Shown piece by piece: positions 8,382-58,761 of a DNA stretch of 64,000 nucleotides. The DNA comes from Candidatus Aminicenantes bacterium. Lineage in GTDB: Bacteria > Acidobacteriota > Aminicenantia > Aminicenantales > Aminicenantaceae. The stretch spans positions 290 to 64,289 of the forward strand of contig QMPV01000001.1 of NCBI GenBank assembly GCA_003648765.1, written 5' to 3'. Every line of letters starts with the position of its first letter. The stretch's first letter is position 1. Made by a program: the position numbers and the translations under genes. The notes under the pieces were generated by a model. The model searched no databases, was not told the DNA's origin, and was given only the letters and a program-made list of their open reading frames with translations.

Positions 8382-9311
8382 ATGGCTCGTTTGAAAGATT
8401 TGGCCCAACAAGAAGATAGATTAGCAGCCGGACATGGGATGTGTTTGGGCTGCGGAATTCCCATAATTTTAAGAATTGTTTTGCGAGCCACCACTGACCC
8501 CTTGGTGGTGGCCAATGCCACCGGTTGCTTGGAAGTCTGTACCACCATCTTTCCCCGCACAGCCTGGAAAGTTAATTGGATTCATAGTGCTTTTGAAAAT
8601 GCGGCGGCCACTATTGCTGGAGTAGAAGCGATGTATAAAGCCTTAAAGAGAAGAGGGAAGATTCCCGCTGACCGAAAAATAAAGTTTTTAGCTATTGGTG
8701 GTGATGGGGGTACTTACGATATCGGACTCCAGTCATTATCCGGAGCTATGGAAAGAGGTCATGATATTGTCTATCTCTGTTATGATAACAATGCCTACGC
8801 CAATACAGGTGGGCAGCGTTCCTCAGCCACACCTCTGGGAGCCTCGGCTACGACTTCGCCGGCGGGCCGAGCCATTCCCGGGAAACTCCAATGGCGTAAG
8901 GATCTCACCCGAATCATGGCGGCCCATGGCCTTCCTTATGTTGCCCAGGGAAGTATTCACCGCTGGCAGGATTTATTTAAGAAAGCCCAAAAGGCCTTTG
9001 CTATTGAAGGTCCAGCTTTCCTTAATGTACTCTGTCCTTGCCCCACGGAGTGGAAATATCCTGAGTCACAAGGAGTTAAATTGGCTCGTTTGGCGGTGGA
9101 GACCTGTGCCTGGCCGCTTTATGAAGTTGAGCAGGGGAAATATCGAATTACCTATAAACCTAAGGAAAAATTGCCGGTGACTGAATGGTTGAAGCCTCAA
9201 GGAAGATTTCGTCACCTGTTTAAAGAAGAAAACGCCTGGATGTTGGAGGAAATCCAGAAAAGGATTGATGCCGAGTGGGCAGAACTCTTGCGATTGAGCC
9301 AGATAGAGTAG
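8382..9311 (+). CDS. 2-oxoacid:ferredoxin oxidoreductase beta subunit (TPP-binding)
   Basis: 309 aa with CLGCG near the N-terminus and the TPP motif GGDGGTYDIGLQSL...NNAYANTGGQ. It is the last gene of the operon. Confidence 0.88.
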   Translation: MARLKDLAQQEDRLAAGHGMCLGCGIPIILRIVLRATTDPLVVANATGCLEVCTTIFPRTAWKVNWIHSAFENAAATIAGVEAMYKALKRRGKIPADRKIKFLAIGGDGGTYDIGLQSLSGAMERGHDIVYLCYDNNAYANTGGQRSSATPLGASATTSPAGRAIPGKLQWRKDLTRIMAAHGLPYVAQGSIHRWQDLFKKAQKAFAIEGPAFLNVLCPCPTEWKYPESQGVKLARLAVETCAWPLYEVEQGKYRITYKPKEKLPVTEWLKPQGRFRHLFKEENAWMLEEIQKRIDAEWAELLRLSQIE

Positions 9312-23401: not shown

Positions 23402-24990
23402 GGCTGCTTTGCCTCCTGGGTTTCTTCAGAAGCCTTCTCGGCCGGCAACATTTTGACCACAAATTGTTTTGAAGTGGCAGAGATAAGGTCTGGTCGTTGA
23501 AAATAGCCTTCATGTTTTTCAATCTGAGTCAGGAGTAATTCGACTGAAGGTTTCATTTTAGCTAGAAAGGTTCGTGGATAGACCCCCATCCAGACCATCA
23601 TAATGACAATTGGTGTTAGGTAGAGGATTTCTCGCAGATTTAGGTCAGGGAAAGTTTTTATTTTTTTCTGGGTTATCGGTCCCTGCATGACTCGCTGGAA
23701 CATCCAGAGGAGGTAACCAGCGGCTAAAATAACGGTGCTTACCGCCAAGATGGCGTACAGAGAATTGGATTGAAAAACACCATAAAGACAGAGAATTTCG
23801 CCAATAAAGCCATTTAGTCCTGGTAACCCTACTGAAGATAAAACACAGACAAGGAAAAAGGCGGCGAAGATAGGCATTTGTCGGCTGACTCCCCCGTAGT
23901 CTTTAATGAGTCGGGTATGGGCTCGCTCATAAAGAATGCCCACACACAAGAAGAGAGCGCCGGTGCTTAAGCCGTGGTTAAGCATTTGATAAATGGCTCC
24001 CTCAATCGAAGTCTGATTGAGAGCAAAAACGGCCAGCATGATCAGGCCCATATGGCTGACACTGGAATAGGCCACCAGAGATTTAACATCTTTTTGAATG
24101 AGAGCCATCAGGCCTCCATAAATGATGCCGATGATAGCCAGCACAGAAAGCAAGGGAATAAATTTGACTACTGCCTGGGGAAAAAGCGGCAGGGCAAAGC
24201 GGAGAAAACCATAAGTCCCCATTTTTAAAAGGACGGCCGCCAGGATGACTGACCCAGCTGTGGGTGCTTCGACATGAGCATCAGGGAGCCAGGTATGGAA
24301 GGGAAACATGGGGACTTTAATGGCAAAAGCCAGAGCAAAGGCCAAGAACAGCCATATTTGAAGCTGGGGATTTAAGACGATTTTATACATATCGAAGATT
24401 TCAAATGAAGCTGTGCCTGTAGCCTTGAGATGAAGAGAGTAAAGCATAAAAATAGCCACCAGCATTAACAGGCTGCCAAACATAGTAAAAAGGACGAATT
24501 TGACGGTGGCGTAAATCCGGCGAGGGCCTCCCCAGACACCGATCAGGAAATACATCGGGATAAGCATAGCTTCCCAGAAGACATAAAAAAGAAAAAGATT
24601 TAAGGAGACAAAAACACCGATGATGCCCGTTTCCAACAGCAGGAGAAAAAAGAGATATTCTTTATGGCGCTTTTGAATATAGTTCCAGGAGGAAAGCACG
24701 GCGATGGGCATCAGGAAAGTGGTTAAAATCACCAGAAACAGACTTATGCCATCAACTCCCAGATGGTAATTAATGCCTCTCCCCAGCCAAGCTGATTTTT
24801 CCACAAATTGCGGTAAGCCCGTGCTCTCATCGAAGCGGAAATAGAGAATTAAGGAAAGGAAAAAATTAAGCAGCGTAAAAATCAAGGCGGTTAGGAATAA
24901 TAATTGTTTTCTTTCCCGAGGGAGAAAGATAATTAACAAGGCACCAACTAAGGGCAGGAAGGTTAAGATGCTTAAAATTTGTCCACTCAT
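23398..24990 (-). CDS. nuoM: NADH-quinone oxidoreductase subunit M
   Basis: 530 aa with antiporter-like NuoM/ND4 conservation (WLPDAHVEAPTAGSVILA). It overlaps nuoN by 4 nt. Confidence 0.9.
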   Translation of the reverse strand: MSGQILSILTFLPLVGALLIIFLPRERKQLLFLTALIFTLLNFFLSLILYFRFDESTGLPQFVEKSAWLGRGINYHLGVDGISLFLVILTTFLMPIAVLSSWNYIQKRHKEYLFFLLLLETGIIGVFVSLNLFLFYVFWEAMLIPMYFLIGVWGGPRRIYATVKFVLFTMFGSLLMLVAIFMLYSLHLKATGTASFEIFDMYKIVLNPQLQIWLFLAFALAFAIKVPMFPFHTWLPDAHVEAPTAGSVILAAVLLKMGTYGFLRFALPLFPQAVVKFIPLLSVLAIIGIIYGGLMALIQKDVKSLVAYSSVSHMGLIMLAVFALNQTSIEGAIYQMLNHGLSTGALFLCVGILYERAHTRLIKDYGGVSRQMPIFAAFFLVCVLSSVGLPGLNGFIGEILCLYGVFQSNSLYAILAVSTVILAAGYLLWMFQRVMQGPITQKKIKTFPDLNLREILYLTPIVIMMVWMGVYPRTFLAKMKPSVELLLTQIEKHEGYFQRPDLISATSKQFVVKMLPAEKASEETQEAKQP

Positions 24991-24991
24991 T

Positions 24992-26893
24992 TTAAAACAA
25001 TAAATATCCCAGTAAAATTACAGCGCCTAGAATAATGGCCAAAGCATAATCTTTAATCAAACCGGTCTGGAGAAGACTAAGAATTTTGCCCAAGAAACCC
25101 GCGGTAGAGGCTGTGCCGTTTACCGCTCCGTCGATAACTTTCAGGTCGAAATGCTGATAGACCAATTCCGAACCCTTAATTGTCGATTGGACAAAAAGAG
25201 TATTGTAAGCCTCATCCACATAGTACTTATTGACTAAGATGCGATAAGGACCGGGAAAACGGGCAACCAGGTTATGAGGTAAAGATGGTTTTTTAATATA
25301 AAAGATGTAAGCGATGAAAATGCCGGTTAAGGCCACGACTGTCGAGGTTAGAATAAGCAACCACTCGGTGCTCAAACTCAGATGCGCTTCTTCATGATGA
25401 GCTATGATCGGGGAAAGGAAACGGAAGAACCAGTTGACATCTTTCCCTAGGACAACTGGGAGTCCGATATAACCGCCAACAATGGAGAGAAAAGCCAGAA
25501 TCATTAAAGGAATGGTCATGACTGGGGGGGATTCATGGATATGTTTTTTAACTTCTTCGGACATCCGCTCTTGACCGTGGAAGGTTAAAAAGATTAACCG
25601 GAACATGTAAAAAGCCGTTAACACTGCGCCGAAAATACCCAGGGTCCAGACTAAATAGTTACCCTGGGCGAAGGCGCTGGTCAGAATAGCATCTTTGGAG
25701 AAAAATCCTGAAAAGAAGGGGATGCCGGAAATGGCGATGGCGCCAATTAAAAAAGTCGGATAGGTAATAGGTAGATATTTTTTAAGCCCGCCCATTTTTT
25801 GCATATTCAATTCACCCGAAAGAGCATGCATGACACTGCCGGCGGCCAAAAAGAGAAGGCTTTTAAAGAAGGCGTGAGTCACTAGGTGGAACATCCCGGC
25901 AGCGTAAGCACCTACGCCACAACCCATAAACATATAACCTATCTGAGAGATAGTCGAGTAAGCCAGGACTCTTTTAATATCATTTTGGGTGAGAGCAATC
26001 GTGGCGGCGAAAACGGCCGTGACCGCTCCGATAAGGGCCACAATTTGAGCCGCGGTTGGAGTAAAGGAATAGAGGGGATTCAGGCGGGAGACCATGTAGA
26101 CGCCAGCAGTGACCATGGTGGCGGCGTGAATTAAAGCTGAGACAGGGGTGGGGCCTTCCATAGCATCCGGCAGCCAAACATAGAGAGGAATTTGGGCGGA
26201 TTTGCCGGTGGCCCCCACGAAAAAGAGGATAGCCATTAGAGTAGCTAGAGGCAGAGCCACCTCATGATGGCTAAAGGCTTGATTGATGATTCTGAATTCG
26301 CCGGTACCTAAATGAAAGAAAACCAGGAAGATTCCCAGGAGAAAAGCCGCATCCCCAATCCGGTTGACAATAAAAGCCTTTTTGCCGGCAGTGGCGGCTG
26401 AATGTTTTTCAAACCAGAACCCGATTAATAGATAAGAACAGAGACCGACTCCCTCCCAACCCACGAACATAAGGACAATGTTTGAGGCCATCACCAGGAG
26501 AAGCATAGCGAAGGTGAACAGATTGAGGTAAGTGAAATAACGGGTGTAGCTTCTGTCTTCGGCCATGTAGCCAACAGAGTAGACATGAATAAGGAAGCCT
26601 ACCCCGGTGACTACCAAGGCCATGATCGAGGAGAGGGGGTCGAGTTGAAAGGCCAGGTCAACCTGGAAGTTACCCGAGGAAATCCAGGTGAAGAGTTTTT
26701 TAATCAAGGGGAAGCTGGAACTGGGGAGTTGAAGGAGATGAATAAAAGCAAGAAGAGATAAAACGAAAGAGAGAAAAACTGAGAAGCAGGCTTGCCAAGA
26801 GACATATTTTTTGGGCATGAGCCGGCCGAACAGAAGGAATAAAATTACACTTAGAGCCGGAAAAAAAGGAATGAGCCAGAAGTATTCGACCAT
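24992..26893 (-). CDS. nuoL: NADH-quinone oxidoreductase subunit L
   Basis: 633 aa with NuoL/ND5 motifs (WLPDAMEGPTPVSALIHAATMVTAGVY) and the long C-terminal extension typical of NuoL. Confidence 0.9.
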   Translation of the reverse strand: MVEYFWLIPFFPALSVILFLLFGRLMPKKYVSWQACFSVFLSFVLSLLAFIHLLQLPSSSFPLIKKLFTWISSGNFQVDLAFQLDPLSSIMALVVTGVGFLIHVYSVGYMAEDRSYTRYFTYLNLFTFAMLLLVMASNIVLMFVGWEGVGLCSYLLIGFWFEKHSAATAGKKAFIVNRIGDAAFLLGIFLVFFHLGTGEFRIINQAFSHHEVALPLATLMAILFFVGATGKSAQIPLYVWLPDAMEGPTPVSALIHAATMVTAGVYMVSRLNPLYSFTPTAAQIVALIGAVTAVFAATIALTQNDIKRVLAYSTISQIGYMFMGCGVGAYAAGMFHLVTHAFFKSLLFLAAGSVMHALSGELNMQKMGGLKKYLPITYPTFLIGAIAISGIPFFSGFFSKDAILTSAFAQGNYLVWTLGIFGAVLTAFYMFRLIFLTFHGQERMSEEVKKHIHESPPVMTIPLMILAFLSIVGGYIGLPVVLGKDVNWFFRFLSPIIAHHEEAHLSLSTEWLLILTSTVVALTGIFIAYIFYIKKPSLPHNLVARFPGPYRILVNKYYVDEAYNTLFVQSTIKGSELVYQHFDLKVIDGAVNGTASTAGFLGKILSLLQTGLIKDYALAIILGAVILLGYLLF

Positions 26894-26894
26894 C

Positions 26895-27197
26895 TTACCC
26901 TTTCATCAAATTTAAATCTTCGGTTTTGATAGTTTTTTTCTGGCGGAAGATAAGCATAACAATGGCCAAGCCAATGGCTGCTTCGGCCGCAGCCACAGTG
27001 ATGACAAAGAAAACAATTATTTGGCCTTCCAGGGAGGCGAAAGCTTGGGCGAAACCAATAAAAGTTAGGTTGGCGGCATTGAGCATCAGTTCAACCGCCA
27101 TAAACATAGTGATCAAATCCCGCTTTACAAAAAAGGCAATCAATCCGATAGCAAAGAGAATTAAACTTAAAATAAACACTAAATTTAAAGGAATCAT
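26895..27197 (-). CDS. nuoK: NADH-quinone oxidoreductase subunit K
   Basis: 100 aa with three TM helices and the ND4L pattern. Confidence 0.88.
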   Translation of the reverse strand: MIPLNLVFILSLILFAIGLIAFFVKRDLITMFMAVELMLNAANLTFIGFAQAFASLEGQIIVFFVITVAAAEAAIGLAIVMLIFRQKKTIKTEDLNLMKG

Positions 27198-27688
27198 TCC
27201 TGGTCCCTTTTTTTCCCCAAAACCACGGCTCCCACCAGGGCCGCTACGATGAGTACAGAGGTGATTTCGAAGGGATAAATAAAAGTGGAAAAAAGAAGTT
27301 CGCCTAAATTCTCAGGCGTGCCCGGCTGGGCGGGTAAAGGCGAGACTACTCCTTTGAACTTGAGAATAGCCCAAAGCAGCTCTAGAAAGAGGATAAACCC
27401 GATAACCACAGCCAGACGAACCGGCCATTTTCTCTTTTCCGGCGGCCAGCCCTGTTTGAGATTAATGGTCATAATCACAAAAATGAAAAGGACCATGATG
27501 GCGCCGGCATAAATAATTATCTGCACGACAGCAATGAAGGGTGCCTCGAGAAGGGCAAAAATACCGCCCAAAGAGGAGAGGGTGACAATAAGGCAAAGAG
27601 CGTTGTAAACTTGATTTCTGAAGAAGATTAAACCGAGAGAAAAAATAATAGCAATTAAAGCGAGCAGGATAAAAAGGAATAAACCCAT
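27194..27688 (-). CDS. nuoJ: NADH-quinone oxidoreductase subunit J
   Basis: 164 aa with the ND6-like TM pattern. It is the first gene of the block. No nuoA-I genes lie upstream. Confidence 0.8.
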   Translation of the reverse strand: MGLFLFILLALIAIIFSLGLIFFRNQVYNALCLIVTLSSLGGIFALLEAPFIAVVQIIIYAGAIMVLFIFVIMTINLKQGWPPEKRKWPVRLAVVIGFILFLELLWAILKFKGVVSPLPAQPGTPENLGELLFSTFIYPFEITSVLIVAALVGAVVLGKKRDQE

Positions 27689-28250
27689 TTTTTGAGTTTC
27701 CCATTATATTTTTTGCTCCAAAGGTATGTCAAGATTTTTTTTGAGTTAAATTAATATTTTGGGTTAAATTGGTGAGTTCATCCTCTAAGACCGAAGAGAA
27801 ATCTATGTTAGTTGCGGAGGTAATCAAACCCACTGCCTTTGAACAGCCTTACAAAAAGCCAGAATTTCTGGTCGGTCAATCCATTGGGGGACAATCTTTA
27901 TTTTCCCCTAGGAGTCCAAGGGCAACAAAAGGAAGTAAAAAATAAATAATTTTTGTGAATTGATTTAATTAATTTAATTAATAAGTTCTAATCAAAGGAG
28001 AAAGCTAAAGATCTGCCCTCATTTTAGCTAACTTGATTAAGATCATCTTATCTAAACAAAAGAGAAGGGCAAAGATCCGACCCTAAATTTAAATTTATCT
28101 CCCTTTATTCGCAGAGAGGGCAGGACTAGACTTTCCGGGGTTAGCTAAAGCAGCAAATTAAAAGAGAAAATTTTTTCCAAGATGAGAACTAGAGACATTT
28201 ATTCTCTTTAGAGAAAATTTTAACTAGCCTGAATGACTGGCCTGAGTCAA

Positions 28251-45232: not shown

Positions 45233-45299
45233 TTAGAGAAAAAAGCTCACCCAGTGACTGGGTTAGCCAAAAAGCTCTTGAAGGAAGCCAGAAGGATTA

Positions 45300-46625
45300 T
45301 TAGCTAGGTGGCTGGCTAACTTGGCGGGCAGGATGAAGCGCCTGTTTAATGGTGATTTCTTCTGTGGCAGCCAAATCAATAAGTCCTGCTTTCTCGGGTG
45401 GATTGATGACTTGGACAGAAGGCTTCTCTGGGGCAGAGGGATTGATCTTTTTTACTTGAGCTATCCACCCTGTGGATAATTTTACCTGACACCCCAAGGG
45501 CCAATAGCCCATAATTTGGATGAATCTCTCTAGCAGTTGAGGTTCGTATTTTTTCTCTTTGTCTTGGCGAAGAGATTTAATGATTTTATCAGGAGAGAAT
45601 TTTTTTTGAGTGAGTTGGAGATGGAAAAGCTCGTCATAAGCATCGCATAAAGCCACCACTTGAGAAATTTGATGAGGCCGGCGCAGATGATATTTCTTGT
45701 TAATGAGGGGTTCGAAGTTATAAGGAAGATGGCTTTCGAAGGCGATAACCAAAGGAATTTCACCTAATTCTTGAACGTAATTTAAGAGAGGGCGGGCCCC
45801 GTAGTAAGCGGACCGAAGTTCAGCCGGTAGAGAGGCAAGGAGGCTGGGTTTCTTTTCTGCCCGCTGTTTTTCTAAAAGAGTTCCCAAATCGTGGAAGAGA
45901 GCTCCCACGCCCAAATCGATTAAGACTTTTTTAGGCCAGCCAATTTGGGAGCCAACATACATGCTTAAGACAGCCACATTGAGCACATGCAAAGTCCGGG
46001 CAGGAGTTTTCTCTTGGTGTTTCGCTAGAGAGATTAAGTCAAGGTAACTCCCGGAAAAACTTTCTAAAAGAGTTAAAGCTGCGAACTGAAGGTCAACAAC
46101 TTCCAGTTCCTCTTTAATCATTATTTTTTCAATAATGGAGTTGACCAGCTGGAGGGCAGAAAAATATTGAGGAATAAATTTGGCTTTTTTTTCGATGAGA
46201 GAGAGGGCTGTTTCAGAGGCCGCTTGAAGTTTGCCGACACCAATGTGTTCTAAGCCGAGAAGCTTTAATTGGCGGGCGATATCCAAGCCGGTTTTTGTCT
46301 GGGGATCAAGCAGGAACTCAATGAATTTTTGGAGTTCTTCAAGTTGTAAGCCGAGAGAAAAGATGATTTTTTCAATCCCCCGCTCTTTTAAAAAATGGAC
46401 AAATGATTGAGCTTTTTCACTGAGCTCAAAGAAGATCTGGTCTTCTAGACAAAGTTCTTGTCCCACCACCCCCAAGATAATTTCGTTCTTTTCCTGAAGA
46501 TAACGAGTTAATGTTTCCCAAAGAGAATTAATAGATTCGGCGAATTGAGGGTGGCTGGGCGAGTAAATTTTGGCGGTTTGAATGGTGTTGATCAAAGCCA
46601 ATAAAAGTTGTTCTTTAGATTCCAT
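45300..46625 (-). CDS. HD-domain protein with a degenerate HD-GYP-like C-terminal domain and a novel N-terminal domain
   Basis: 441 aa. HVLNVAVLS...GALFHDLG...DAYDEL resembles the HD-GYP scaffold, but the HHExxDGxGYP stretch is replaced (ESHLPYNF). The N-terminal ~110 aa are paralogous to the N-terminus of the upstream 640-aa protein. Confidence 0.55.
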   Translation of the reverse strand: MESKEQLLLALINTIQTAKIYSPSHPQFAESINSLWETLTRYLQEKNEIILGVVGQELCLEDQIFFELSEKAQSFVHFLKERGIEKIIFSLGLQLEELQKFIEFLLDPQTKTGLDIARQLKLLGLEHIGVGKLQAASETALSLIEKKAKFIPQYFSALQLVNSIIEKIMIKEELEVVDLQFAALTLLESFSGSYLDLISLAKHQEKTPARTLHVLNVAVLSMYVGSQIGWPKKVLIDLGVGALFHDLGTLLEKQRAEKKPSLLASLPAELRSAYYGARPLLNYVQELGEIPLVIAFESHLPYNFEPLINKKYHLRRPHQISQVVALCDAYDELFHLQLTQKKFSPDKIIKSLRQDKEKKYEPQLLERFIQIMGYWPLGCQVKLSTGWIAQVKKINPSAPEKPSVQVINPPEKAGLIDLAATEEITIKQALHPARQVSQPPS

Positions 46626-48537
46626 GGGTCAACCTTTCCAGAGCCTGATGGGCTTCTTCTCGGAGTTTTTTATTCCAGAAAAATTTTCTTTGGCTGAGTT
46701 CCTGAAGATAGGGTTGGGCTTCAGGGACACCAATTTCAGTTATGATTTGAATATTAGCCCGGAGGAATCTATTTCTCAATCCGAAAGGAGAAGGAACGAG
46801 GAGTAATTCCTGGAGAATTTTTTCCCGAGATTGAGGATTTTGCACCAGGACTCGAATGGCTTCTTTGCGGAGAGCCAGATTTTTGTGTTTAATTAGAGGT
46901 TGAAGAAAAGAGTGCTCAATCAGGCTGAGTTTTTGGAAGGCTTGAATGATTTTTACCTGAAGTGAGGGGCTTACTAAGGGGAAAATGTGTTTGAGAATGG
47001 TCGCTATTTGGGGAGAATCAATGGTTTGTAAATTGGTAATAATATTTTCCACTAGAACTTCATCATGAGTGACCCTTTCCAGGTTTAGCAGAAAGTAAAA
47101 AAGATGATCGCTGAAGAAATGAAGAAAAGCCTGGAGGAGATAAGGTGTGACAATCTTTTTATCAAAGATGATTTCCAAATAAACGTTTTCGTTGTAGTAA
47201 GAAGCATCAAAAAGATTAATTAATTCTTGGAAATAAAGGTTCTTTTCCCCTTCAAGAATCAATTGTTCGACTTGTTTAGTAATTATTTTTTTGATTTGAC
47301 TGATGGCCTCGCCTACCAGATGGGGAGGGAGGTTTTGGAGGGAAGAGTAGAGATACTTGATGAATTCGAAATCTTTTTCTTCCAGAGCCACGCTGACTTC
47401 TTCTCCTAACAATTGAGTAATTTTCTGACGCTCAGCCGTTTTTTCTTCCCAGTGGAAAAGATTGAGAAGTATGAAACGGAAATTTCTCTTGAGTTCTTTG
47501 GAGTCAAAAGGTAATGTTTCCACTTCGGGGCGAGTACTGAGCTCTTCCAGAACTGATTTGTAAGTTTCAGCAAGGGGATAATCAACTGACGATAGAATTT
47601 TTTTGATTTTATTTTGGAGTTTACCCTGAGCCAGGAGACTGGCTTGTTGGCTTAAAATATCTTTCATTAAAGCTGATATTTTTTCGTTTTTTTCTTCAGG
47701 AATTATTCTGGTAATGAGTTGCCAGCGGAGAGAATCAAAATCATCCCGATGGATCAATTCCTCGCTTAGAAAGAGAGCAAGATCTTCTTCACTTAGCTGA
47801 GTCAGAATCTTTTTGTATTTTTCCAAAGGGAAATCAGCGCCAAGATTAGGCCGATGGAGAAGTGAGCGGAGAAATTCCTTGACCCGGAGCGGATAAGCGG
47901 GCGCATTGACTTCCTGAAGCCGGGCAAAGAATTTTTCTAGGGAAAGATTTATTTCTTCATCATTAATCAATTTTTCCAAGTCAAGTGAGGAAATAAATTT
48001 AACAAAGCTTTCTTCAACCTCACGAAAGAGTTGGTTGTCTTCTTTCTTTATTGATTCATCCAGCAAATAACCCCAGACATCCTTAATTTCTTCCCCTTCT
48101 CCTTTGAGAAGTTGAGAATAATCGAGTTCTTCTATTTGAATATGGGGGAAGGCACCTGATGCCAAGAGAGGCATTAATCCTTCCTGGCGATAGTAATCTC
48201 GAAGAGGTAAACTGAGGGTGGTGATTAATTGAGAGAGTTCCTTGGGCTCTATTCCTGGAATAAAGGTGAGGCTTTTTATTTTTCTTAAATGGAGAAAACA
48301 AGCTAACTCTTGATAGAGGGTATCTCCCTCCAGGCTGAAGTCATTGACACGAAGAGAAGTAGGGCTGATTTTAATAATTAGAGGAGAAAAAAATCGACTT
48401 ACCTCTTGAAGACGTTGAGTAAGATTTTGAATTGAATGTTGAAAGCCAGGGTGATGGTGAGGATACATGAGAGCGTTCTTAAGAGAAATTTTAAAGGCTT
48501 GGAAAAAAAGTTTGAGAGTTTCAATTTGAGTTTTCAA
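46615..48537 (-). CDS. hypothetical protein: N-terminal domain shared with the downstream HD protein, C-terminal HEAT/PBS-lyase-like repeats
   Basis: 640 aa. Its N-terminal MYPHHHPGFQHSIQNLTQRLQE...FLHLRKIKSLTF aligns with IYSPSHPQFAESINSLWETLTRYLQE...FLKERGIEKIIF of the next gene. The C-terminus has repeated LRKEAIRVL-like helical repeats. It overlaps the downstream gene by 11 nt. Confidence 0.5.
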   Translation of the reverse strand: MKTQIETLKLFFQAFKISLKNALMYPHHHPGFQHSIQNLTQRLQEVSRFFSPLIIKISPTSLRVNDFSLEGDTLYQELACFLHLRKIKSLTFIPGIEPKELSQLITTLSLPLRDYYRQEGLMPLLASGAFPHIQIEELDYSQLLKGEGEEIKDVWGYLLDESIKKEDNQLFREVEESFVKFISSLDLEKLINDEEINLSLEKFFARLQEVNAPAYPLRVKEFLRSLLHRPNLGADFPLEKYKKILTQLSEEDLALFLSEELIHRDDFDSLRWQLITRIIPEEKNEKISALMKDILSQQASLLAQGKLQNKIKKILSSVDYPLAETYKSVLEELSTRPEVETLPFDSKELKRNFRFILLNLFHWEEKTAERQKITQLLGEEVSVALEEKDFEFIKYLYSSLQNLPPHLVGEAISQIKKIITKQVEQLILEGEKNLYFQELINLFDASYYNENVYLEIIFDKKIVTPYLLQAFLHFFSDHLFYFLLNLERVTHDEVLVENIITNLQTIDSPQIATILKHIFPLVSPSLQVKIIQAFQKLSLIEHSFLQPLIKHKNLALRKEAIRVLVQNPQSREKILQELLLVPSPFGLRNRFLRANIQIITEIGVPEAQPYLQELSQRKFFWNKKLREEAHQALERLTHGI

Positions 48538-48821
48538 AGTCCACCTACTAGAGGTAATTGAATCAAAGTGAGCAAATTATGCCTCTCCTCTTTCCCTAGC
48601 AAAGAATATTAATCCTGACTTTCTCTGTCAAGTAGAATGGGCCCAATTGTCTAATTAAAACAGTGCTTTTGGTCAAGACAAAAGGGTTGGCCAGGGATTA
48701 AGAAAGAGAAGGGGCCGGAAGCCATGGATTGAGATAAAAAGAATTAGTCTGTTGGCTGTGGACTATTAAAAAGAGGATGTGATTAATTAAAGCTCTTTTT
48801 CCTTGCTGGCAGCGGCCCGCC

Positions 48822-48852
48822 AAAAAAAAGAGACTGGACTGGGAATGAGTCC
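48822..48852 (-). terminator. candidate intrinsic terminator for the PAS-GGDEF gene
   Basis: On the minus strand a GGACT-cattccc-AGTCC hairpin is followed by agtctcTTTTTTTT, about 30 nt after the stop. Confidence 0.4.
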
Positions 48853-48883
48853 TTCTGAATTGGAATTTAGAAAAAAGTTGGAC

Positions 48884-49870
48884 TTATTTCTCTTCTTCTT
48901 TTCGGGGTAATTCCAGAGTAAAGGCGACCCGATTACGGCCGAGCCATTTAGCGTGGTTCATTAATTTCTGGGCCCGATTTATTAAACTCTCCACAGTGTC
49001 CTTTTTTTGAGCCAGAGTAGCTCCAATGGAGACGGTTGTGCTGACAATTTCATTTTCAATCATAATGCTAGCTTGAGTAATTAATAATCTGAGTTTATTG
49101 GCAATCATGTCCAGTTTTGGTTCAGTGATATTAAGAATAACTACAATAAATTCATCTTCCTTCCAGCGACCCACAATATCAAAAAAGCGAATATTATTTT
49201 GAAGAGTTTGGCCCACGCTCCGCAGAACTTTATCCCCTCCCTCTGGGCCAAAAGCTTCGTTGATATTAACCATTTTGTCAATGTCTAAATAAAGAATGCC
49301 TGAGGTGAGTTTGAATTTTCTCAGTTCCTCCAGACGAGAGAGGAGTTGAATTTCTAGATAACGCTGATTGCCTACCTCGGTTAAGGGATCCAGAAGGGCC
49401 ATGCGACGAAGTTCTTCCGTTTTCTGGGGCATAAGCACTTTGGGCGACATATCGGAAAAAATTTCAGCTGCCCCGATAATATGGCCTTTTTCATCGCTAA
49501 GGGGCAGTAGATGAATTTCCACCGGTAAGAGATAGCCTTCTTTATGATGGATGTAAACTTCAAGATGACGAGGCTGGCCGTCTTCCATAACTTTAATGGC
49601 GGGACAAAGGTCATCACAGAGTTTAGTGCCGTAGGCATTCACATGAACCAAGACCTGGTCCCAACATTTTTTACCGATAACCTCTTCTGGGGAATGGCCG
49701 GCGATTCTTTCTGCGCCTTTATTCCAAAAGAAAATTTCTCTTTCTCGATTGACAGCGCAAATACCATCCTGAGTGTTGTCTAGAATGATTTTGAGGATAG
49801 ATGGTGACAGATACTCGATAAAATTGTTATTTGTCAACTTAACCAATCTTACCCCCCACTTATTTTTCAA
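48884..49870 (-). CDS. PAS domain + degenerate GGDEF domain protein (GG(D/E)EF replaced by KEDEF)
   Basis: 328 aa with an N-terminal PAS domain (NTQDGICAVNREREIFFWNKGAERIAGHS) and a C-terminal GGDEF fold (DPLTEV.NQRYL... I-site region ...). The signature reads DIVGRWKEDEFIVV. Confidence 0.8.
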   Translation of the reverse strand: MKNKWGVRLVKLTNNNFIEYLSPSILKIILDNTQDGICAVNREREIFFWNKGAERIAGHSPEEVIGKKCWDQVLVHVNAYGTKLCDDLCPAIKVMEDGQPRHLEVYIHHKEGYLLPVEIHLLPLSDEKGHIIGAAEIFSDMSPKVLMPQKTEELRRMALLDPLTEVGNQRYLEIQLLSRLEELRKFKLTSGILYLDIDKMVNINEAFGPEGGDKVLRSVGQTLQNNIRFFDIVGRWKEDEFIVVILNITEPKLDMIANKLRLLITQASIMIENEIVSTTVSIGATLAQKKDTVESLINRAQKLMNHAKWLGRNRVAFTLELPRKEEEK

Positions 49871-50055: not shown

Positions 50056-51138
50056 GTGAGCATGATTAAGATTTTGCATACGGCTGATTTACATCTGCAG
50101 AAGAAGGGAGATGAGCGTTGGGCCACTTTAGTAAAAATTTTGCAATTAGCTCGGGCCGAGAAAGTAGCTTTTTTAATTATTGCCGGAGATCTTTTTGATG
50201 CCAATAGTCAGGCTGAAAATTTGAAGAGGGAATTAAGACCTCTTTTTTCTCAAAATGAATTTGAAATTTTGATTCTGCCCGGTAATCATGATGCCCGGTG
50301 GTGGCAAACATCTCCATTTCTTGGGAATAATGTCAAGATTTTTACTGAATTGACTCAGCCTTTTCTTTACTCTGAAGGAAAAATTGCTTTTTATGGACTG
50401 CCTTTTGAATTTATGAGTCGGGATGAATTACTCCAAAAGTGGCAACTACTCAAACCAGCTTTGGAGACTAAAAGAACTAACTTCCTGGTTTTCCATGGAG
50501 AATTACTTGATGCTTTTTATCTCCCTACTGATTTTGGGGACGAAGGTCGAGAGCGTTATTTACCCGTGAAACTCGTGGATTTTAGTGAGTTGGCTTTTGA
50601 TTATATTTTAGCTGGACATTTCCACACTCGTTTTGAAGTTTTCTCGATGAAAAATGGTGGATATTTTATTTATCCCGGCTCGCCTATTTCTATTACCCGC
50701 AAAGAATTAGGACCTCGGCGGGTAAATTTATTTAAAATCGGACAGCCCCCAAGTGAAGTAATTTTGGCCACCCCTTTCTATCAGGAAATTGAAGTTTTTC
50801 TTGATCCTACCCAAAAATCTTCTCCTCTGGAGGTAGTTGAGGCCGCTTTAAGTAACTTACCCCAAGAAGCTCGGGTTATTCTCCGGGTCAAAGGATTTTT
50901 TGACGGCCGACGCCATAACCTCACCGAACAATCCTTCCAGGAAAAGCTCGAGCAACTCACTGCCAAATACAACGTAGAGGATATTCAACCCGAATATTAT
51001 GATTTCCAGCGGGTAGCTCAAGAGAGGCTTTTTCAGGAAGTTATGGATAGGTTAAATCAGCGGAGTGACCTCGAAGAAGCAGAACGAACCAAAATGAGAG
51101 AAATAGTCATTCGGGCTATGGTCGAGGCTTTAGCATGA
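50056..51138 (+). CDS. SbcD/Mre11-family metallophosphoesterase (YhaO-like nuclease subunit)
   Basis: 360 aa with calcineurin-like motifs (ILHTADLHL, GDLFD, LPGNHD, GHFH). The start is GTG or the ATG two codons in. Confidence 0.85.
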   Translation: MSMIKILHTADLHLQKKGDERWATLVKILQLARAEKVAFLIIAGDLFDANSQAENLKRELRPLFSQNEFEILILPGNHDARWWQTSPFLGNNVKIFTELTQPFLYSEGKIAFYGLPFEFMSRDELLQKWQLLKPALETKRTNFLVFHGELLDAFYLPTDFGDEGRERYLPVKLVDFSELAFDYILAGHFHTRFEVFSMKNGGYFIYPGSPISITRKELGPRRVNLFKIGQPPSEVILATPFYQEIEVFLDPTQKSSPLEVVEAALSNLPQEARVILRVKGFFDGRRHNLTEQSFQEKLEQLTAKYNVEDIQPEYYDFQRVAQERLFQEVMDRLNQRSDLEEAERTKMREIVIRAMVEALA

Positions 51139-53459
51139 AAATCAAAGAGATAAACTTGCCAAGATACGGCCCTTTGAGAGAACGCTATTTTAAGAATTTG
51201 GGGAGTTTTAATCTTTTTTGGGGAGAGAACGAGGAGGGCAAAACGCTCCTCATCGAAGCTCTGCTGAAAATGCTTTTTGGCAAAAAAGCCCGGGGATTGC
51301 CGGGCATTGATCGCGTTGAGGAATTTCCTGAAGGTTTTGTGATTCTGGAACTAGCTGGCGGTGAAGAAATTAAATTACCCCAAGATGGAGATTTAAATAG
51401 CCTCTTTGATTTACCTGTGTCTGAAGGAGAAAATATTTTTATTATTCGTAACAGCGAACTGGCTCTTTCGCGGCAGAAAGAAGGAGAGTTTCGCTTTTAT
51501 ACTGAATTTACAGATCGTCTTTTAGGTTTGCAGACCCAAAAAATCAAAAAATTAAAGAGCGTCCTCCAAAAAATGGGTCGGTTGACCCGCCCTGAATCAG
51601 ACGCCCCTCTCTCGGGAAGTAAAGAAGTGGAGTTTATGGCTCGAAGGGTGAAGGTGGCTGAAGAATTAATTAAGGAGATGGAAGAGTTGCAAGAGCAAAT
51701 TGAAGAAAAAGGTTGGGCTGATTTAGAAAGAGCCTTAGCCTTTGACCAAGAAAAATATCGGCTAATTAATAATCAACTGGATCTTCTGGAAAAAGCCCGG
51801 CTTCGCGATTTATACCAACAGGGGAAGCAAGCCTTAAGAGAGCTCCGAGAAAGCTGGCAAGTTTGGCCTGAATTAGCCAAGTTTCAACCTGATTTAAAAG
51901 TGAGCTGGCTCAGAGCCCAAGATGGTCTTCAGATTCACCAGAAAGAATTAGACCGAGAATTACAAGCTCTTGAAAAAAAGAAACAAGCTCTTCAACAAAA
52001 GGAAGAAGAATGGCGGAAAAAACAAGAGGAGAAAGCTGCTCTGGAGGAAAAGAGACTTCAAGCCAGAGGACAACTGCAGGATTTAGTCCGCGAATACCAG
52101 GAGAGATTGGCCCACCAGAGCCAAGAGTCTTCCGGTCTTTCTTTTTGGCAAAAGTTTTTCTGGGGTAGTCTGGTTCTGGTTATTTTGCCGGCTTTAGCTT
52201 GGCTAATCCAGCCCCATTTTATTTTGGCGGTCGTGGCCGCTGGTGGCTTCTTGGGTTTTATTTTTTCTAGTGTGAAAATTATTTCCCTCCGTCGCCAGCA
52301 AGGTCAGCTTGAATCTCTTTGGGTTAGATTGGCTAACCGAGCAGCAGCTTTAGGGTTGAGAGCCACTTCTTTTCAGGAACTTTTAGCCCAATTGGCTCGC
52401 CTAGAAGAAGCAGGCAGTCGGCTGGAAAAAGAAATAGGTGGGTTAGAGGAGGCCAGGAGGCAATTGAGAGTGGATCTGGCTGAAATCGAAGCCAAGGTGG
52501 AGGAACGCCGCCAGACGATGGCCAGTGATACGGAAACTCTCAACCAGCTTCGTCAATCCACTGGAGTCACCTCTCTTAAAGAATTAGAAGAGAAAATTGC
52601 TCAGGCGGCTCATCATAAAAGTGTCTTAGATCGGACTCAGGCTTTTCTTGAACAAAATTTTCAGAGGATAAGTGAGGACTTAGCGGCTAACCTGGAGTAT
52701 TGGCAACAAAAATTGTCTGCTCTGGTCTCTTTTCAAGAAGTACCAGCTGAAGTAGTTTACTCGGAAGAAGAGAAAATCAGGTCGGAGAGTGAGCTTCAAA
52801 TTTTAAAAGAGAAAATAGAGGAGACTAGCCAGAGTTTAGCTGCCCTGCGCCAACGCCTAGCTCATCTAGAAGATAAGATAAATCGAGAAGTCCAATTGCC
52901 CGAGTATTATCGGTGTGGAACCATCGAAGAGATGGTGGTGGTCAAAGAAAAGCTGGAAGAATTTATTAACCAGATTTTAGAAGAAAAATACTTGGTTAGC
53001 CGAGTGCTGGAAATCTTGGAAGAAATAGAAGCTGAAGAAAGAGATAAAATTACTTTTCTTTTTGGCGATGAAAGTCAGGTTTCGGAATATTTTAGAAAAA
53101 TCACGGGCAACCGCTATCATTCTGTAGCTTACGACGGGGAAGAGATGAGTTTGGTGGTCCAGTCAGAGGAAGGTAAGCCATTAAAAGCTACTCAACTTTC
53201 GGCTGGTACTTACGACCAGCTTTATTTTGCGGTTCGCTTGGCTTTGGGAGAGAAAAGATTTCCCCAAGAGAAAGCGTTTTTCATTTTAGATGACCCCTTG
53301 GTCAAAGCTGACCCTCGGCGGCTGCTTGCTCAATTAGAACTCCTCCAGGAGATTGTGGAGATGGGCTGGCAAATCTTTTATTTTTCGGCTAAAGGCGAGA
53401 TCAAGGAGGCCCTGCAAAATGACATTCAGGCTGGTCGGGTGACTTATATATCTTTTTAA
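51135..53459 (+). CDS. SbcC/Rad50-like AAA ATPase with long coiled coil and two internal transmembrane helices (YhaN-like)
   Basis: 774 aa with an N-terminal P-loop GENEEGKT, long heptad-rich Glu/Lys/Leu/Gln segments, a hydrophobic pair (FWQKFFWGSLVLVILPALAWLIQPHFILAVVAAGGFLGFIFSSV) and a C-terminal signature/Walker B (QLSAGTYDQLYFAVRLAL...FFILDDP). It overlaps the SbcD-like stop by 4 nt. Confidence 0.75.
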   Translation: MKIKEINLPRYGPLRERYFKNLGSFNLFWGENEEGKTLLIEALLKMLFGKKARGLPGIDRVEEFPEGFVILELAGGEEIKLPQDGDLNSLFDLPVSEGENIFIIRNSELALSRQKEGEFRFYTEFTDRLLGLQTQKIKKLKSVLQKMGRLTRPESDAPLSGSKEVEFMARRVKVAEELIKEMEELQEQIEEKGWADLERALAFDQEKYRLINNQLDLLEKARLRDLYQQGKQALRELRESWQVWPELAKFQPDLKVSWLRAQDGLQIHQKELDRELQALEKKKQALQQKEEEWRKKQEEKAALEEKRLQARGQLQDLVREYQERLAHQSQESSGLSFWQKFFWGSLVLVILPALAWLIQPHFILAVVAAGGFLGFIFSSVKIISLRRQQGQLESLWVRLANRAAALGLRATSFQELLAQLARLEEAGSRLEKEIGGLEEARRQLRVDLAEIEAKVEERRQTMASDTETLNQLRQSTGVTSLKELEEKIAQAAHHKSVLDRTQAFLEQNFQRISEDLAANLEYWQQKLSALVSFQEVPAEVVYSEEEKIRSESELQILKEKIEETSQSLAALRQRLAHLEDKINREVQLPEYYRCGTIEEMVVVKEKLEEFINQILEEKYLVSRVLEILEEIEAEERDKITFLFGDESQVSEYFRKITGNRYHSVAYDGEEMSLVVQSEEGKPLKATQLSAGTYDQLYFAVRLALGEKRFPQEKAFFILDDPLVKADPRRLLAQLELLQEIVEMGWQIFYFSAKGEIKEALQNDIQAGRVTYISF

Positions 53460-57933: not shown

Positions 57934-58761
57934 TTAGACCTCAGTTTGAGGAAGCTCTCTTTCTTCAAGTATTTTTTCTAGGGAGATTCCCTTTTTGGCC
58001 AAATATTCGGAGATCAACTTGGGTCCGAGGCTCTCCAACTTCGGTTGCAGGGAGGCCACGACCTTCTCGGGAGTGACATCTTCTTGGATATTGAAGAAAT
58101 TTCTTTTCCAATGGATAAAATAACCGGAGAGACAGATAGGTTGCACCCGGCGATAAAAATCCCGCCGAAAGATATCTAAGATGGACTTTTTCTGTCGGTC
58201 GAGGCTGTTAAAGTCAATCTTGGCGCCCAGCTTGAGCAGCACATCTCTTCTTTCCTGCCGAGTGTTGAGATCATAGAGAATAGGTAGGTATTGGACTTTA
58301 TACCGGCGGGCGAAATTTTTGATTATTTCCAAAAATTCTGGAAAATTATCGGCGGTTACCAAGAGTTTAGCCCCATTAGGAGCCTGTTCCCAGTTGGCCC
58401 CGTCAGTGAAAAAAGGGATATTGTGTTCCAAGGCATAAACAATGCTTCCTAAAGCCATACTGGCCCGACAGGGGATACACCAGGCGGTTTCGTTCCCGTA
58501 TTTTTTCTTAGTTTCTCGATAAGTTTTGACTCCTAATTCTTTAAAAAAATTTTTGATGTCCATAATTTTGTGGACAAACTTTTCTGGGCCATGGATTTTT
58601 TGGAGAAGTTCCACATTGATCCGATTAGCTTTCAGAGCCAGATGTAGATAACCCTTATTGAAAGTCAGCAGGTGAATTTTATCATATCGGGAGGCCAAAT
58701 AATGAGCGGCGTAGAGAGAGTCGATTCCACCGGAGAATTGAAGAATAACTTCCTTTTTCAT
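57934..58761 (-). CDS. PP-loop (adenine nucleotide alpha-hydrolase) family ATP pyrophosphatase, QueC/ExsB-like
   Basis: 275 aa with the N-terminal PP-loop LQFSGGIDSL (SGGxDS) and Cys-rich CIPCR. The exact subfamily is uncertain. Confidence 0.6.
   Translation of the reverse strand: MKKEVILQFSGGIDSLYAAHYLASRYDKIHLLTFNKGYLHLALKANRINVELLQKIHGPEKFVHKIMDIKNFFKELGVKTYRETKKKYGNETAWCIPCRASMALGSIVYALEHNIPFFTDGANWEQAPNGAKLLVTADNFPEFLEIIKNFARRYKVQYLPILYDLNTRQERRDVLLKLGAKIDFNSLDRQKKSILDIFRRDFYRRVQPICLSGYFIHWKRNFFNIQEDVTPEKVVASLQPKLESLGPKLISEYLAKKGISLEKILEERELPQTEV

What the first reader, a model, noticed from the sequence alone, without database searches (positions are those of the whole stretch)
45300..49870. 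Cluster of degenerate c-di-GMP-domain proteins: an operon of two paralogous-N-terminus unknowns (one degenerate HD-GYP) next to a PAS-KEDEF degenerate GGDEF
The 640-aa and 441-aa proteins are co-directional with an 11-nt overlap. They share a clearly alignable ~110-aa N-terminal domain (Y-P-x-HP-F..SI..L...LQE ... FL..R.I...F..G....EL). The second protein ends in an HD-GYP-like scaffold that keeps the HD (ALFHDLG) but has lost HHE...GYP. The first ends in HEAT-like repeats. Immediately upstream on the same strand, a PAS-GGDEF protein has KEDEF in place of GG(D/E)EF. Degenerate GGDEF and HD-GYP domains typically act as c-di-GMP receptors or scaffolds rather than enzymes. Three such proteins in a row, sharing a novel N-domain, suggests an uncharacterised signalling or effector module.
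Basis: partly seen in the sequence, partly recalled or inferred. Interest (0 to 1): 0.65.

Follow-up and report, generated by a model that had tools for sequence, protein, structure and literature searches.

The report
Paired HEAT-scaffold and dead HD-GYP genes
Two overlapping genes in an uncultured Aminicenantes bacterium encode a helical-repeat scaffold and a cyclic-di-GMP phosphodiesterase relative; they share an unannotated N-terminal domain and form a gene pair conserved across several phyla, but this lineage's enzyme has lost its catalytic and substrate-binding residues.

Summary
The three ORFs, the 11-nt overlap, the KEDEF motif, the loss of HHE..GYP and the helical-repeat tail are all present. 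The shared N-terminal domain is real: pairwise BLASTP gives E~1, but profile-profile comparison gives E 2.4e-15.

Comparative data change the emphasis. The conserved unit is the two-gene pair. B (640 aa) is the N-domain plus a HEAT/ARM-like solenoid. A (441 aa) is the N-domain plus a linker, an HD-GYP domain and a C-terminal domain.

The pair occurs, nearly always with overlapping genes, in about 70 species of Aminicenantes and Omnitrophota. It also occurs in three very distant lineages.

In 69 of 71 orthologues the HD-GYP is fully canonical, including the RxYK c-di-GMP specificity motif. Only the window and its nearest relative are degenerate there, and two further close relatives are partly so. 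A is nevertheless under purifying selection (dN/dS ~0.08).

The PAS–degenerate-GGDEF neighbour is an accessory of one Aminicenantes sub-clade and is probably transcribed separately here.

The N-domain has no Pfam, NCBIfam or PDB match, yet it hits 7,508 protein clusters.

Best reading: this is an undescribed heteromeric c-di-GMP signalling module whose enzyme subunit has become a pseudoenzyme in this lineage. The association of A with B is inferred, not shown.

The parts
46615..48537 (-). Gene B, 640 aa: N-domain plus alpha-solenoid (HEAT/ARM-like) protein. NCBI annotates it as 'hypothetical protein' RLE04727.1.
   Evidence: ORF. More than 100 homologues of about 640 aa, none with a Pfam domain. 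AF2 pLDDT 86.9. Solenoid hits in Foldseek. Name.
48103..48537 (-). N-domain of B (aa 1-145). Conserved Y25, H29-P30, and the basic patch H83-x-R85-x-x-K88.
   Evidence: hhalign E 2.4e-15 against the A N-domain. Invariant columns, renumbered.
48088..48132 (-). EELDYSQLLKGEGEE motif of B (aa 136-150). It is the most conserved stretch of the Aminicenantes/Omnitrophota B family and is absent from A.
   Evidence: Nearly invariant columns. The search for related loci chose it as its search pattern. Position.
46630..48093 (-). All-helical repeat (alpha-solenoid) region of B, aa 149-636.
   Evidence: DSSP on the model. Foldseek PDB hits to beta-catenin/SYS-1, PP2A-A, CAND1 and importin-beta at E 1e-5 to 1e-3.
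45300..46625 (-). Gene A, 441 aa: N-domain, linker, degenerate HD-GYP and C-terminal domain. NCBI annotates it as 'hypothetical protein' RLE04726.1.
46212..46625 (-). N-domain of A (aa 1-138). Predicted fold is alpha-alpha-beta3-alpha-beta-alpha-alpha-alpha-beta. Conserved Y21, H25-P26, E98-L99.
45510..46010 (-). Degenerate HD-GYP domain of A (aa 206-372). HD is kept. The HDxGK Lys, two metal-ligand His, the Asp, GYP and RxYK are lost.
45303..45509 (-). C-terminal domain of A (aa 373-441). It aligns in most of the HD-GYP homologues compared, including DUF3391-type proteins.
   Evidence: Alignments A1 and A6, with the invariant proline listed as P401.
45249..45263 (-). Terminator-like hairpin with a T-run, just downstream of A.
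   Evidence: This is a consensus match only.
48538..48883 (-). 346-nt spacer between C and B. It holds a terminator-like hairpin (48836-48852) and a promoter-like TTGACA-17-TATTCT site (48603-48631).
   Evidence: These are consensus matches only. In L001 and L008 the same two genes are 9 nt apart.
48884..49870 (-). Gene C, 328 aa: PAS (aa 26-142) plus degenerate GGDEF (aa 158-314). KEDEF is at 237-241 and RFFD (RxxD) at 228-231. C69, C85 and C89 are invariant cysteines.

Best explanation
B and A are the two subunits of a conserved, previously unannotated c-di-GMP signalling module. B is an N-domain plus a HEAT/ARM-like solenoid. A is the paralogous N-domain plus a helical linker, an HD-GYP domain and a C-terminal domain.

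Shown: the two genes are adjacent and nearly always overlapping in about 70 species of Aminicenantes and Omnitrophota. The same holds in three very distant lineages and in two paralogous copies. The N-domains are homologous, and the duplication that produced them is old. In almost all lineages A carries every HD-GYP catalytic residue and the c-di-GMP-specific RxYK motif. In the window's lineage A has lost 2 of the 7 metal ligands that the family has, and all the side chains that contact c-di-GMP. It still evolves under purifying selection.

Inferred: the overlapping genes give coupled, roughly equimolar synthesis. The two paralogous N-domains pair with each other. B then acts as a scaffold or regulatory subunit that positions or controls the phosphodiesterase, in the way a PP2A A subunit holds its catalytic subunit or a local c-di-GMP module tethers its enzyme. 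In the window organism A is a pseudoenzyme. It keeps the structural or regulatory role within the complex but no longer hydrolyses c-di-GMP, and probably no longer binds it in the canonical site.

The neighbouring PAS–degenerate-GGDEF protein C cannot make c-di-GMP because it has no GG. It keeps the RxxD I-site and three invariant PAS cysteines. It is most likely a sensor or c-di-GMP-binding accessory recruited to the module in one Aminicenantes sub-clade.
For: Pair conservation: every locus whose contig continues past B has an A orthologue immediately downstream. Overlaps are typically 4-17 nt. The one exception is L080, where both genes are disrupted.

Distant pairs: P0006, P0021 and P0014 (20-26% identity to A) are each preceded, with a 4-8 nt overlap, by a 685-748 aa protein. 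That protein carries the N-domain (E 1e-14 to 1e-18) and HEAT_2 repeats (E 1e-19 to 3e-5).

Second pairs: L020 and L005 each hold a second copy of the pair.

N-domain homology: E 2.4e-15 with negative controls. A-like N-domains score higher on the A profile and B-like ones on the B profile in most distant pairs.

Canonical state of A: among the 69 other orthologues H, HD, K, H, HH, Y, D and RxYK are 69/69, G and P of GYP 68/69, and the Asp after HH 62/69.

Selection: window versus L004 gives dN/dS of 0.08 for A, 0.06 for B and 0.04 for C. Full-length degenerate relatives P0002-P0005 exist at 60-85% identity.

Translational coupling: the junction sequence is.

Solenoid fold of B.

Precedents: catalytically dead HD-GYPs that act through protein-protein contacts (HnoD, Xanthomonas RpfG, ECA3548) are described in bioRxiv 10.1101/2021.11.05.467447.
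Against: No direct evidence that A and B bind each other. No multimer prediction or co-evolution test could be run.

The B-specific, nearly invariant EELDYSQLLKGEGEE motif and the H83/R85/K88 patch are unexplained. They could mean B has a ligand-binding or other activity of its own.

dS between the window and L004 is saturated (about 2), so the dN/dS values are rough.

The window may hold only part of the story. A canonical HD-GYP elsewhere in the genome could be B's real enzymatic partner.

Of the 7,508 N-domain hits only the top 150, all B-type, could be inspected. Other architectures may exist.
Confidence: 0.55

Rival explanations
1. The N-domain is a small-molecule or metal sensor rather than a pairing module. 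A and B each sense the same cue independently. They are co-transcribed because they act in one pathway, without forming a complex. B's solenoid then binds some other target.
For: HD-GYP proteins usually carry N-terminal sensor domains (bioRxiv 10.1101/2021.11.05.467447). The N-domain has an alpha/beta fold with an invariant His and near-invariant Tyr and Glu (Y21, H25, E98 in A). The weak, non-significant top Foldseek hits are GAF-type sensor domains. B has an extra conserved basic patch, H83/R85/K88.
Against: The gene overlap and the strict 1:1 pairing over very long evolutionary distances are more typical of physical partners. No ligand-binding family matches. This reading is not exclusive of the best explanation.
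Confidence: 0.22
2. One reading: the three proteins are degenerate c-di-GMP domains acting as c-di-GMP receptors or effectors. The HD-GYP remnant of A and the I-site of C would bind c-di-GMP.
For: C keeps RxxD (RFFD 228-231) exactly five residues before the degenerate motif. Degenerate GGDEF and HD-GYP domains are known to retain binding in some proteins.
Against: A has lost the HDxGK Lys, the Tyr of GYP and the whole RxYK motif. These residues contact c-di-GMP in PmGH. In three of the five distinct C orthologues the I-site is RxxE. C is absent from most loci that have the pair.
Confidence: 0.13
3. Gene A in this lineage is a decaying relic. It is on its way to becoming a pseudogene and has no function, and only B still matters.
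For: Ten otherwise near-invariant catalytic or binding positions are substituted at once. The HD and C-terminal parts of A show the lowest identity to L004 (70% and 67%).
Against: The full-length open frame is kept in the window, in L004 and in P0002, P0003 and P0005 at 60-85% identity. The rough dN/dS is about 0.08. The 11-nt overlap and the SD-like site are retained. The N-domain and the HD-scaffold helices remain well conserved.
Confidence: 0.07

Closest known systems
Bd1817 family (DUF3391–HD-GYP; Bdellovibrio Bd1817, PDB 3TM8; PA4108; VC2497)
   Same: A cytoplasmic, non-REC N-terminal domain of about 120-140 aa is joined by a long helix to an HD-GYP domain. DUF3391-type proteins are the nearest annotated sequence relatives of A outside its own family, through the HD-GYP and C-terminal parts.
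   Different: DUF3391 is four beta strands followed by two long helices. The N-domain here starts with two long helices followed by the sheet. PF11871 hits none of 42 N-domain sequences even at E<=10. No HEAT-repeat partner gene has been described for the Bd1817 family.
PmGH (GAF–HD-GYP, Persephonella marina, PDB 4MCW/4MDZ)
   Same: It is the best solved-structure sequence match of A (E 0.0036, A 148-370). It supplies the reference set of metal ligands and c-di-GMP contacts.
   Different: PmGH is an active trinuclear enzyme with a GAF sensor. The A family lacks the E185-type acidic residue, so it is of the binuclear type. The window protein also lacks two His ligands, the Lys, the Asp, GYP and RxYK.
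Catalytically inactive HD-GYP regulators (Shewanella HnoD SO_2541, Xanthomonas RpfG complexes, Pectobacterium ECA3548)
   Same: These are HD-GYP domains with substituted active-site motifs, or with little phosphodiesterase activity, that work through protein-protein interactions. That is the proposed role of window A.
   Different: HnoD and RpfG are REC–HD-GYP proteins and ECA3548 is a PilZ-containing protein. None has this N-domain or a paralogous HEAT-repeat partner. Their degenerate motifs differ from those here.
Degenerate GGDEF receptors with an intact I-site (for example PelD and PopA; cited from my own knowledge)
   Same: C has a GGDEF fold without GG but with RxxD at the canonical spacing.
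   Different: C has a PAS domain with three invariant cysteines. c-di-GMP binding is untested. Three of the five distinct orthologues have RxxE.
HEAT/ARM scaffold subunits (for example the PP2A A subunit and beta-catenin)
   Same: The predicted alpha-solenoid of B matches them structurally, although TM-scores are low (<=0.27 on the query). The proposed logic is the same: a repeat scaffold holds a phosphoesterase subunit.
   Different: There is no sequence relationship, the hits are eukaryotic, and the match is generic to solenoids. B has an extra N-domain shared with its partner.

Membership tests
HD-GYP c-di-GMP phosphodiesterase (PS51832/IPR037522; Pfam HD_5 PF13487 + HD PF01966) | Homology of the domain to HD-GYP proteins | tested here: met
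   PDB phmmer hits PmGH at E 0.0036 and also PA4781. NCBIfam NosR-family HD-GYP scores E 5e-7. Orthologues in L001 and L003 carry precomputed HD_5 and HD hits.
HD-GYP c-di-GMP phosphodiesterase (PS51832/IPR037522; Pfam HD_5 PF13487 + HD PF01966) | Full set of metal ligands (H, HD, H, HH, D) | tested here: not met
   H213, H245, D246, H299 and D331 are kept. S272 and S298 replace His that is 69/69 conserved in the other orthologues.
HD-GYP c-di-GMP phosphodiesterase (PS51832/IPR037522; Pfam HD_5 PF13487 + HD PF01966) | GYP motif and the Asp of HHExxDGxGYP | tested here: not met
   The sequence is P306-L307-I308 and N303. In the other orthologues G is 68/69, Y 69/69, P 68/69 and D 62/69.
HD-GYP c-di-GMP phosphodiesterase (PS51832/IPR037522; Pfam HD_5 PF13487 + HD PF01966) | c-di-GMP contact residues: the Lys of HDxGK and the RxY[K/R] motif | tested here: not met
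   These positions are T249, Q337, T339 and Q340. In the other orthologues they are K, R, Y and K, each 69/69.
HD-GYP c-di-GMP phosphodiesterase (PS51832/IPR037522; Pfam HD_5 PF13487 + HD PF01966) | Pfam score above the gathering threshold | tested here: not met
   HD scores 17.8 bits against a cut-off of 22, and HD_5 is not reported.
HD-GYP c-di-GMP phosphodiesterase (PS51832/IPR037522; Pfam HD_5 PF13487 + HD PF01966) | c-di-GMP hydrolysis | not testable with these tools
   This needs an enzyme assay.
GGDEF diguanylate cyclase (PF00990) | GGDEF-domain fold or profile | tested here: met
   PF00990 E 2.8e-31 and TIGR00254 E 2.5e-32.
GGDEF diguanylate cyclase (PF00990) | GG(D/E)EF active-site motif | tested here: not met
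   The motif is KEDEF in the window and L004, EGQEF in L011, SSKKL in L008 and SIKKL in L001.
GGDEF diguanylate cyclase (PF00990) | RxxD inhibitory site five residues upstream | tested here: met
   RFFD is at 228-231 in the window and L004. The site is RxxE in L011, L008 and L001.
DUF3391 (PF11871), the N-domain of Bd1817-type HD-GYPs | Profile match | tested here: not met
   PF11871 hits none of 42 N-domain sequences at E<=10.
DUF3391 (PF11871), the N-domain of Bd1817-type HD-GYPs | Topology: four beta strands, then two long helices | tested here: not met
   The model has H2-20 and H26-46 first, then strands 48-65, and so on.
HEAT-repeat proteins (PF13646 HEAT_2 / PF02985) | Profile match above threshold | tested here: inconclusive
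   Window B scores E 0.05 on HEAT_2, below the cut-off. Distant B-like partners score E 1.4e-19 (L084) and 5.7e-16 (L020 second pair).
HEAT-repeat proteins (PF13646 HEAT_2 / PF02985) | Alpha-solenoid of paired helices | tested here: met
   The AF2 model is all-helical from 149 to 636. The top Foldseek hits are ARM/HEAT solenoids.
PAS sensor domain | Profile match | tested here: met
   PAS_4 E 4.4e-14 and PAS_9 E 4.5e-14, aa 30-142 of C.
Known anti-phage defence systems (PADLOC) | Any component model match | tested here: not met
   A and B have no hits. C has only a weak Cas10 palm-domain hit at E 0.0025, as expected for a GGDEF fold.

The most novel reading that the evidence does not exclude
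The shared N-domain defines a large, undescribed domain family (7,508 clusters at 50% identity). Its members come as obligate gene pairs: a HEAT-repeat protein plus an HD-GYP phosphodiesterase. The pairs would form a heterodimeric 'scaffolded PDE', a new class of local c-di-GMP signalling module present in several phyla. In one Omnitrophota group the pair sits directly after ftsQ-ftsA, where ftsZ normally lies, so the module could link c-di-GMP turnover to cell division or envelope growth. The window's lineage would then be a natural experiment in which the enzyme subunit became a pseudoenzyme while the complex persisted.
Probability: 0.3. Interest if true: 0.7.

Novelty: new variant of a known kind. 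Interest (0 to 1): 0.55.

Why it matters
HD-GYP proteins are the less understood of the two classes of c-di-GMP phosphodiesterase. [quoted passage not shown]

This locus gives a concrete, testable case. It has an unannotated domain with thousands of members. That domain is always found in a HEAT-scaffold/HD-GYP gene pair in the cases examined. There is also a natural lineage in which the enzyme is dead but maintained.

If the two proteins form a complex, this would add a new architecture for localising or gating c-di-GMP hydrolysis. It would also give a function to two 'hypothetical protein' families that are common in Aminicenantes and Omnitrophota, both uncultured phyla.

If the proteins do not associate, the finding reduces to a new sensor domain of HD-GYP proteins. 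That would be useful for annotation but ordinary.

Tried and rejected
(1) Pairwise BLASTP of A against B gave E~1. The homology claim therefore rests on profiles.

(2) The third word-indexed homologue search, with the N-domain alignment, returned only five fragments and nothing new.

(3) The exhaustive representative search found 7,508 hits, but the 150 listed were all B-type. The other architectures could not be inspected.

(5) The afdb50 fold library was not available.

(6) DUF3391 identity was considered and rejected on both profile and topology.

(7) Defence-system membership was rejected.

(8) tblastn of a distant B-like protein against plasmids found no match.

(9) Literature searches for HD-GYP with HEAT repeats, and for HD-GYP with Aminicenantes, found nothing relevant.

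(10) The idea that C, B and A form one three-gene operon in the window was set aside. The 346-nt spacer carries promoter-like and terminator-like sites, although the orthologues in L001 and L008 are only 9 nt apart.

(11) Both structure-prediction jobs went on B and on the N-domain. No full-length model of A and no complex model was made.

Full report
**1. What is in the window**

Three co-directional ORFs lie on the minus strand.
- C: 48884-49870, 328 aa.
- B: 46615-48537, 640 aa, TTG start.
- A: 45300-46625, 441 aa.

B's TAA stop lies 11 nt inside A. A GGAAAGG site sits 7 nt before A's ATG, as expected for translational coupling. A terminator-like hairpin follows A at 45249-45263.

C and B are separated by 346 nt. 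The spacer holds a terminator-like hairpin (48836-48852) and a promoter-like TTGACA-17-TATTCT site (48603-48631). These are consensus matches only.

Identical or near-identical proteins are deposited as 'hypothetical protein' DRJ11_00200 and DRJ11_00205 from a Candidatus Aminicenantes MAG.

The flanking genes are unrelated. They encode a tricorn-type protease, a lone receiver domain, RidA, an SbcD-like phosphoesterase, a beta-lactamase-fold protein and a ClC channel.

**2.

Every observation is confirmed.

*Protein C.* C has a PAS domain (E 4e-14) and a GGDEF domain (E 3e-31). The motif is KEDEF at 237-241. RFFD, an RxxD I-site, lies exactly five residues upstream.

*Protein A.* A gives only a sub-threshold Pfam HD hit. 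Its best solved-structure relatives are the HD-GYP enzymes PmGH (4MCW, E 0.0036) and PA4781.

*Protein B.* B has no family hit. Its AF2 model (pLDDT 86.9) is an alpha-solenoid from residue 149 to 636. The solenoid matches beta-catenin, the PP2A A subunit, CAND1 and importins.

*The shared N-domain.* Pairwise BLASTP does not detect it (E~1). Profiles built from about 70 orthologues of each family align A 2-133 with B 6-138 at 98.5% probability, E 2.4e-15. The three control comparisons of the remaining protein parts give E 0.04-0.5. Only A and B carry the domain in the 64-kb window.

**3. Comparative genomics: the conserved unit is the B-A pair**

B has more than 100 homologues of very constant length, about 640 aa. 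A scan of one genome per GTDB species found it in 80 loci. All are titled Aminicenantes, Acidobacteriota or Omnitrophota, or carry only a generic 'uncultured' MAG label.

In every locus whose contig continues past B, an A orthologue of about 445 aa follows. The two genes usually overlap by 4-17 nt. The single exception is L080, where both genes are broken.

Three A-like proteins at only 20-26% identity (P0006, P0021, P0014) come from quite different, partly high-GC organisms. Each is preceded, with a 4-8 nt overlap, by a 685-748 aa protein. That protein carries the N-domain (E 1e-14 to 1e-18) and bona fide HEAT_2 repeats.

L020 and L005 each hold a second, divergent copy of the pair.

In most of these distant pairs the A-like N-domain scores better on the A profile and the B-like one on the B profile. 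The duplication therefore predates the divergence of these lineages, and the pairing has been stable since.

**4. The HD-GYP is normally intact; the window's lineage is the exception**

Among the 69 other A orthologues:
- the metal ligands (H, HD, H, HH, D) are conserved in 69/69;
- the Lys of HDxGK, the Tyr of GYP and the RxYK motif are conserved in 69/69;
- the Gly and Pro of GYP are conserved in 68/69;
- the Asp after HH is conserved in 62/69.

According to the HD-GYP census, RxY[K/R] and the Tyr of GYP specify c-di-GMP binding. The lack of the E185-type acidic residue marks the binuclear class.

The window protein keeps H213, H245, D246, H299 and D331. It has the following substitutions:

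| Canonical feature | Window residue(s) |
|---|---|
| Lys of HDxGK | T249 |
| Metal-ligand His | S272 |
| Metal-ligand His | S298 |
| Asp after HH | N303 |
| GYP | P306-L307-I308 |
| RxYK | Q337 / T339 / Q340 |

Its closest GTDB relative, L004 (JdFR-80), is equally degenerate. P0003 and P0005 are intermediate: they keep SYP or AYP.

A is still a full-length frame in all of these. A rough Nei-Gojobori comparison with L004 gives dN/dS of 0.08 for A, 0.06 for B and 0.04 for C. dS is saturated, so only 'well below 1' should be read from these numbers.

B in the window keeps every family-invariant residue.

**5. The PAS–degenerate-GGDEF protein is an accessory**

A C orthologue lies upstream of B only in the window, L004, L011, L008 and L001/L002/L012. 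In all five distinct sequences the GG is absent (KEDEF, EGQEF, SSKKL, SIKKL). The I-site is RxxD in two and RxxE in three. The whole C family is therefore non-catalytic.

Three PAS cysteines (C69, C85, C89) are invariant (numbering).

**6. The N-domain is unannotated**

- No Pfam family matches any of 42 members, even at E<=10. That includes DUF3391, the known N-domain of Bd1817-type HD-GYPs.
- DUF3391 also has the opposite order of elements: four strands and then two helices. The model here has two helices and then the sheet (pLDDT 87.9, pTM 0.83).
- An exhaustive profile search of 1.84 billion cluster representatives finds 7,508 proteins at E<=1e-3 and 2,432 at E<=1e-10. The domain is therefore common. 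Only the top 150 hits, all B-type, could be seen.
- The held literature does not mention an HD-GYP/HEAT pairing.

**7. Mechanism**

Shown: the pairing, the gene overlap, the paralogous N-domains, the solenoid fold of B, the canonical HD-GYP in most lineages, and the loss of catalytic and binding residues under continued constraint in this lineage.

Inferred: coupled translation yields a stoichiometric A-B complex. The paralogous N-domains are the obvious candidate for the interface. B acts as scaffold or regulator of the phosphodiesterase. In the window organism A persists as a pseudoenzyme subunit. HnoD, RpfG and ECA3548 are precedents for inactive HD-GYPs that act through protein contacts.

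Unexplained: the nearly invariant B-specific EELDYSQLLKGEGEE motif (aa 136-150) and the H83/R85/K88 patch. B may bind a ligand or the HD-GYP domain through them.

I put 0.55 on the complex/pseudoenzyme model.

**8. Functional hints from neighbourhoods elsewhere**

- In 13 Omnitrophota loci the order is murC-murB-ddl-ftsQ-[divergent FtsA]-B-A, with 0-22 nt between ftsA and B in most of them. The FtsA identification rests on a profile hit to PDB FtsA at E 9e-8. No FtsZ signature occurs in any fetched locus.
- In some of these loci A is followed by a lone receiver domain and a GAF–HD-GYP.
- In 22 other Omnitrophota loci glutamate dehydrogenase precedes B, and CTP synthase often follows A.
- These associations may reflect clade synteny and are not proof of function.

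**9. Verdict**

The novelty is a new variant of a known kind: an HD-GYP signalling protein with an undescribed N-domain and an obligate paralogous HEAT-repeat partner, seen here in a naturally inactivated form. Interest is moderate (0.55). It is a solid, testable lead for c-di-GMP biology and for annotation of two uncultured phyla. It is not a categorically new system.

Noticed in passing
L003 786-9259; also L033, L035, L045, L049, L064, L066-L070, L074, L075: In 13 Omnitrophota loci the B-A pair directly follows a divergent FtsA (~385 aa; weak Pfam SHS2_FTSA; profile hit to PDB FtsA at E 9e-8). Where more upstream sequence was checked, the order is murC-murB-ddl-ftsQ-ftsA-B-A, with 0-22 nt between ftsA and B in most loci. 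This is the position ftsZ usually occupies. No FtsZ signature (GGGTG[ST]G) occurs in any fetched locus.
   Followed up: partly
L037 4552-5889 and 21 other Omnitrophota loci; L024 4359-5963; L016 4477-5883; L039 4223-5815: Nitrogen-metabolism genes recur next to the pair. Glutamate dehydrogenase lies ~100 nt upstream of B in 22 loci. CTP synthase lies next to the pair in 9 loci, mostly downstream of A. Glutamine synthetase is upstream in 2 Aminicenantes loci. A glutamate-synthase-like gene is upstream in 4 loci. This may be only clade synteny.
   Followed up: partly
L045 9388-10982; L049 9334-10948; L075 9354-10912: In some Omnitrophota loci A is followed by a stand-alone receiver domain (119-122 aa) and a second HD-GYP protein (391-411 aa; a GAF domain was detected only in L049; L075 was not scanned against Pfam). 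This suggests a larger c-di-GMP gene cluster.
   Followed up: partly
window 49601-49666 (protein C residues 69-90): The PAS domain of the degenerate GGDEF protein has three cysteines (C69, C85, C89, in a CxxxCP motif) that are invariant in all five orthologues. They could form a metal, Fe-S or redox-sensing site.
   Followed up: no
L020 10230-13566; L005 10881-13852 (minus strand): Two Aminicenantes genomes carry a second, divergent copy of the HEAT-protein/HD-GYP pair a few kb from the first. The module has therefore duplicated as a unit.
   Followed up: partly
L080 5998-9293: In one MAG the pair looks disrupted. B is truncated at 452 aa, and A is split into two ORFs (8026-8721 and 8718-9293). 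This could be pseudogenisation or an assembly error.
   Followed up: no
window 51135-53459 (+) and 57934-58761 (-): A 774-aa coiled-coil-rich ORF overlaps the end of an SbcD-like phosphoesterase gene by 4 nt, which is the position of SbcC. It has no Pfam hit at E<=1e-5. A 275-aa ORF at 57934-58761 also has no Pfam hit.
   Followed up: no
window 22001-28000: AT skew rises to +0.22 over about 6 kb, against roughly +/-0.1 over most of the rest of the window. The stretch coincides with three large minus-strand ORFs (21950-26893). GC skew is positive across the whole window.
   Followed up: no
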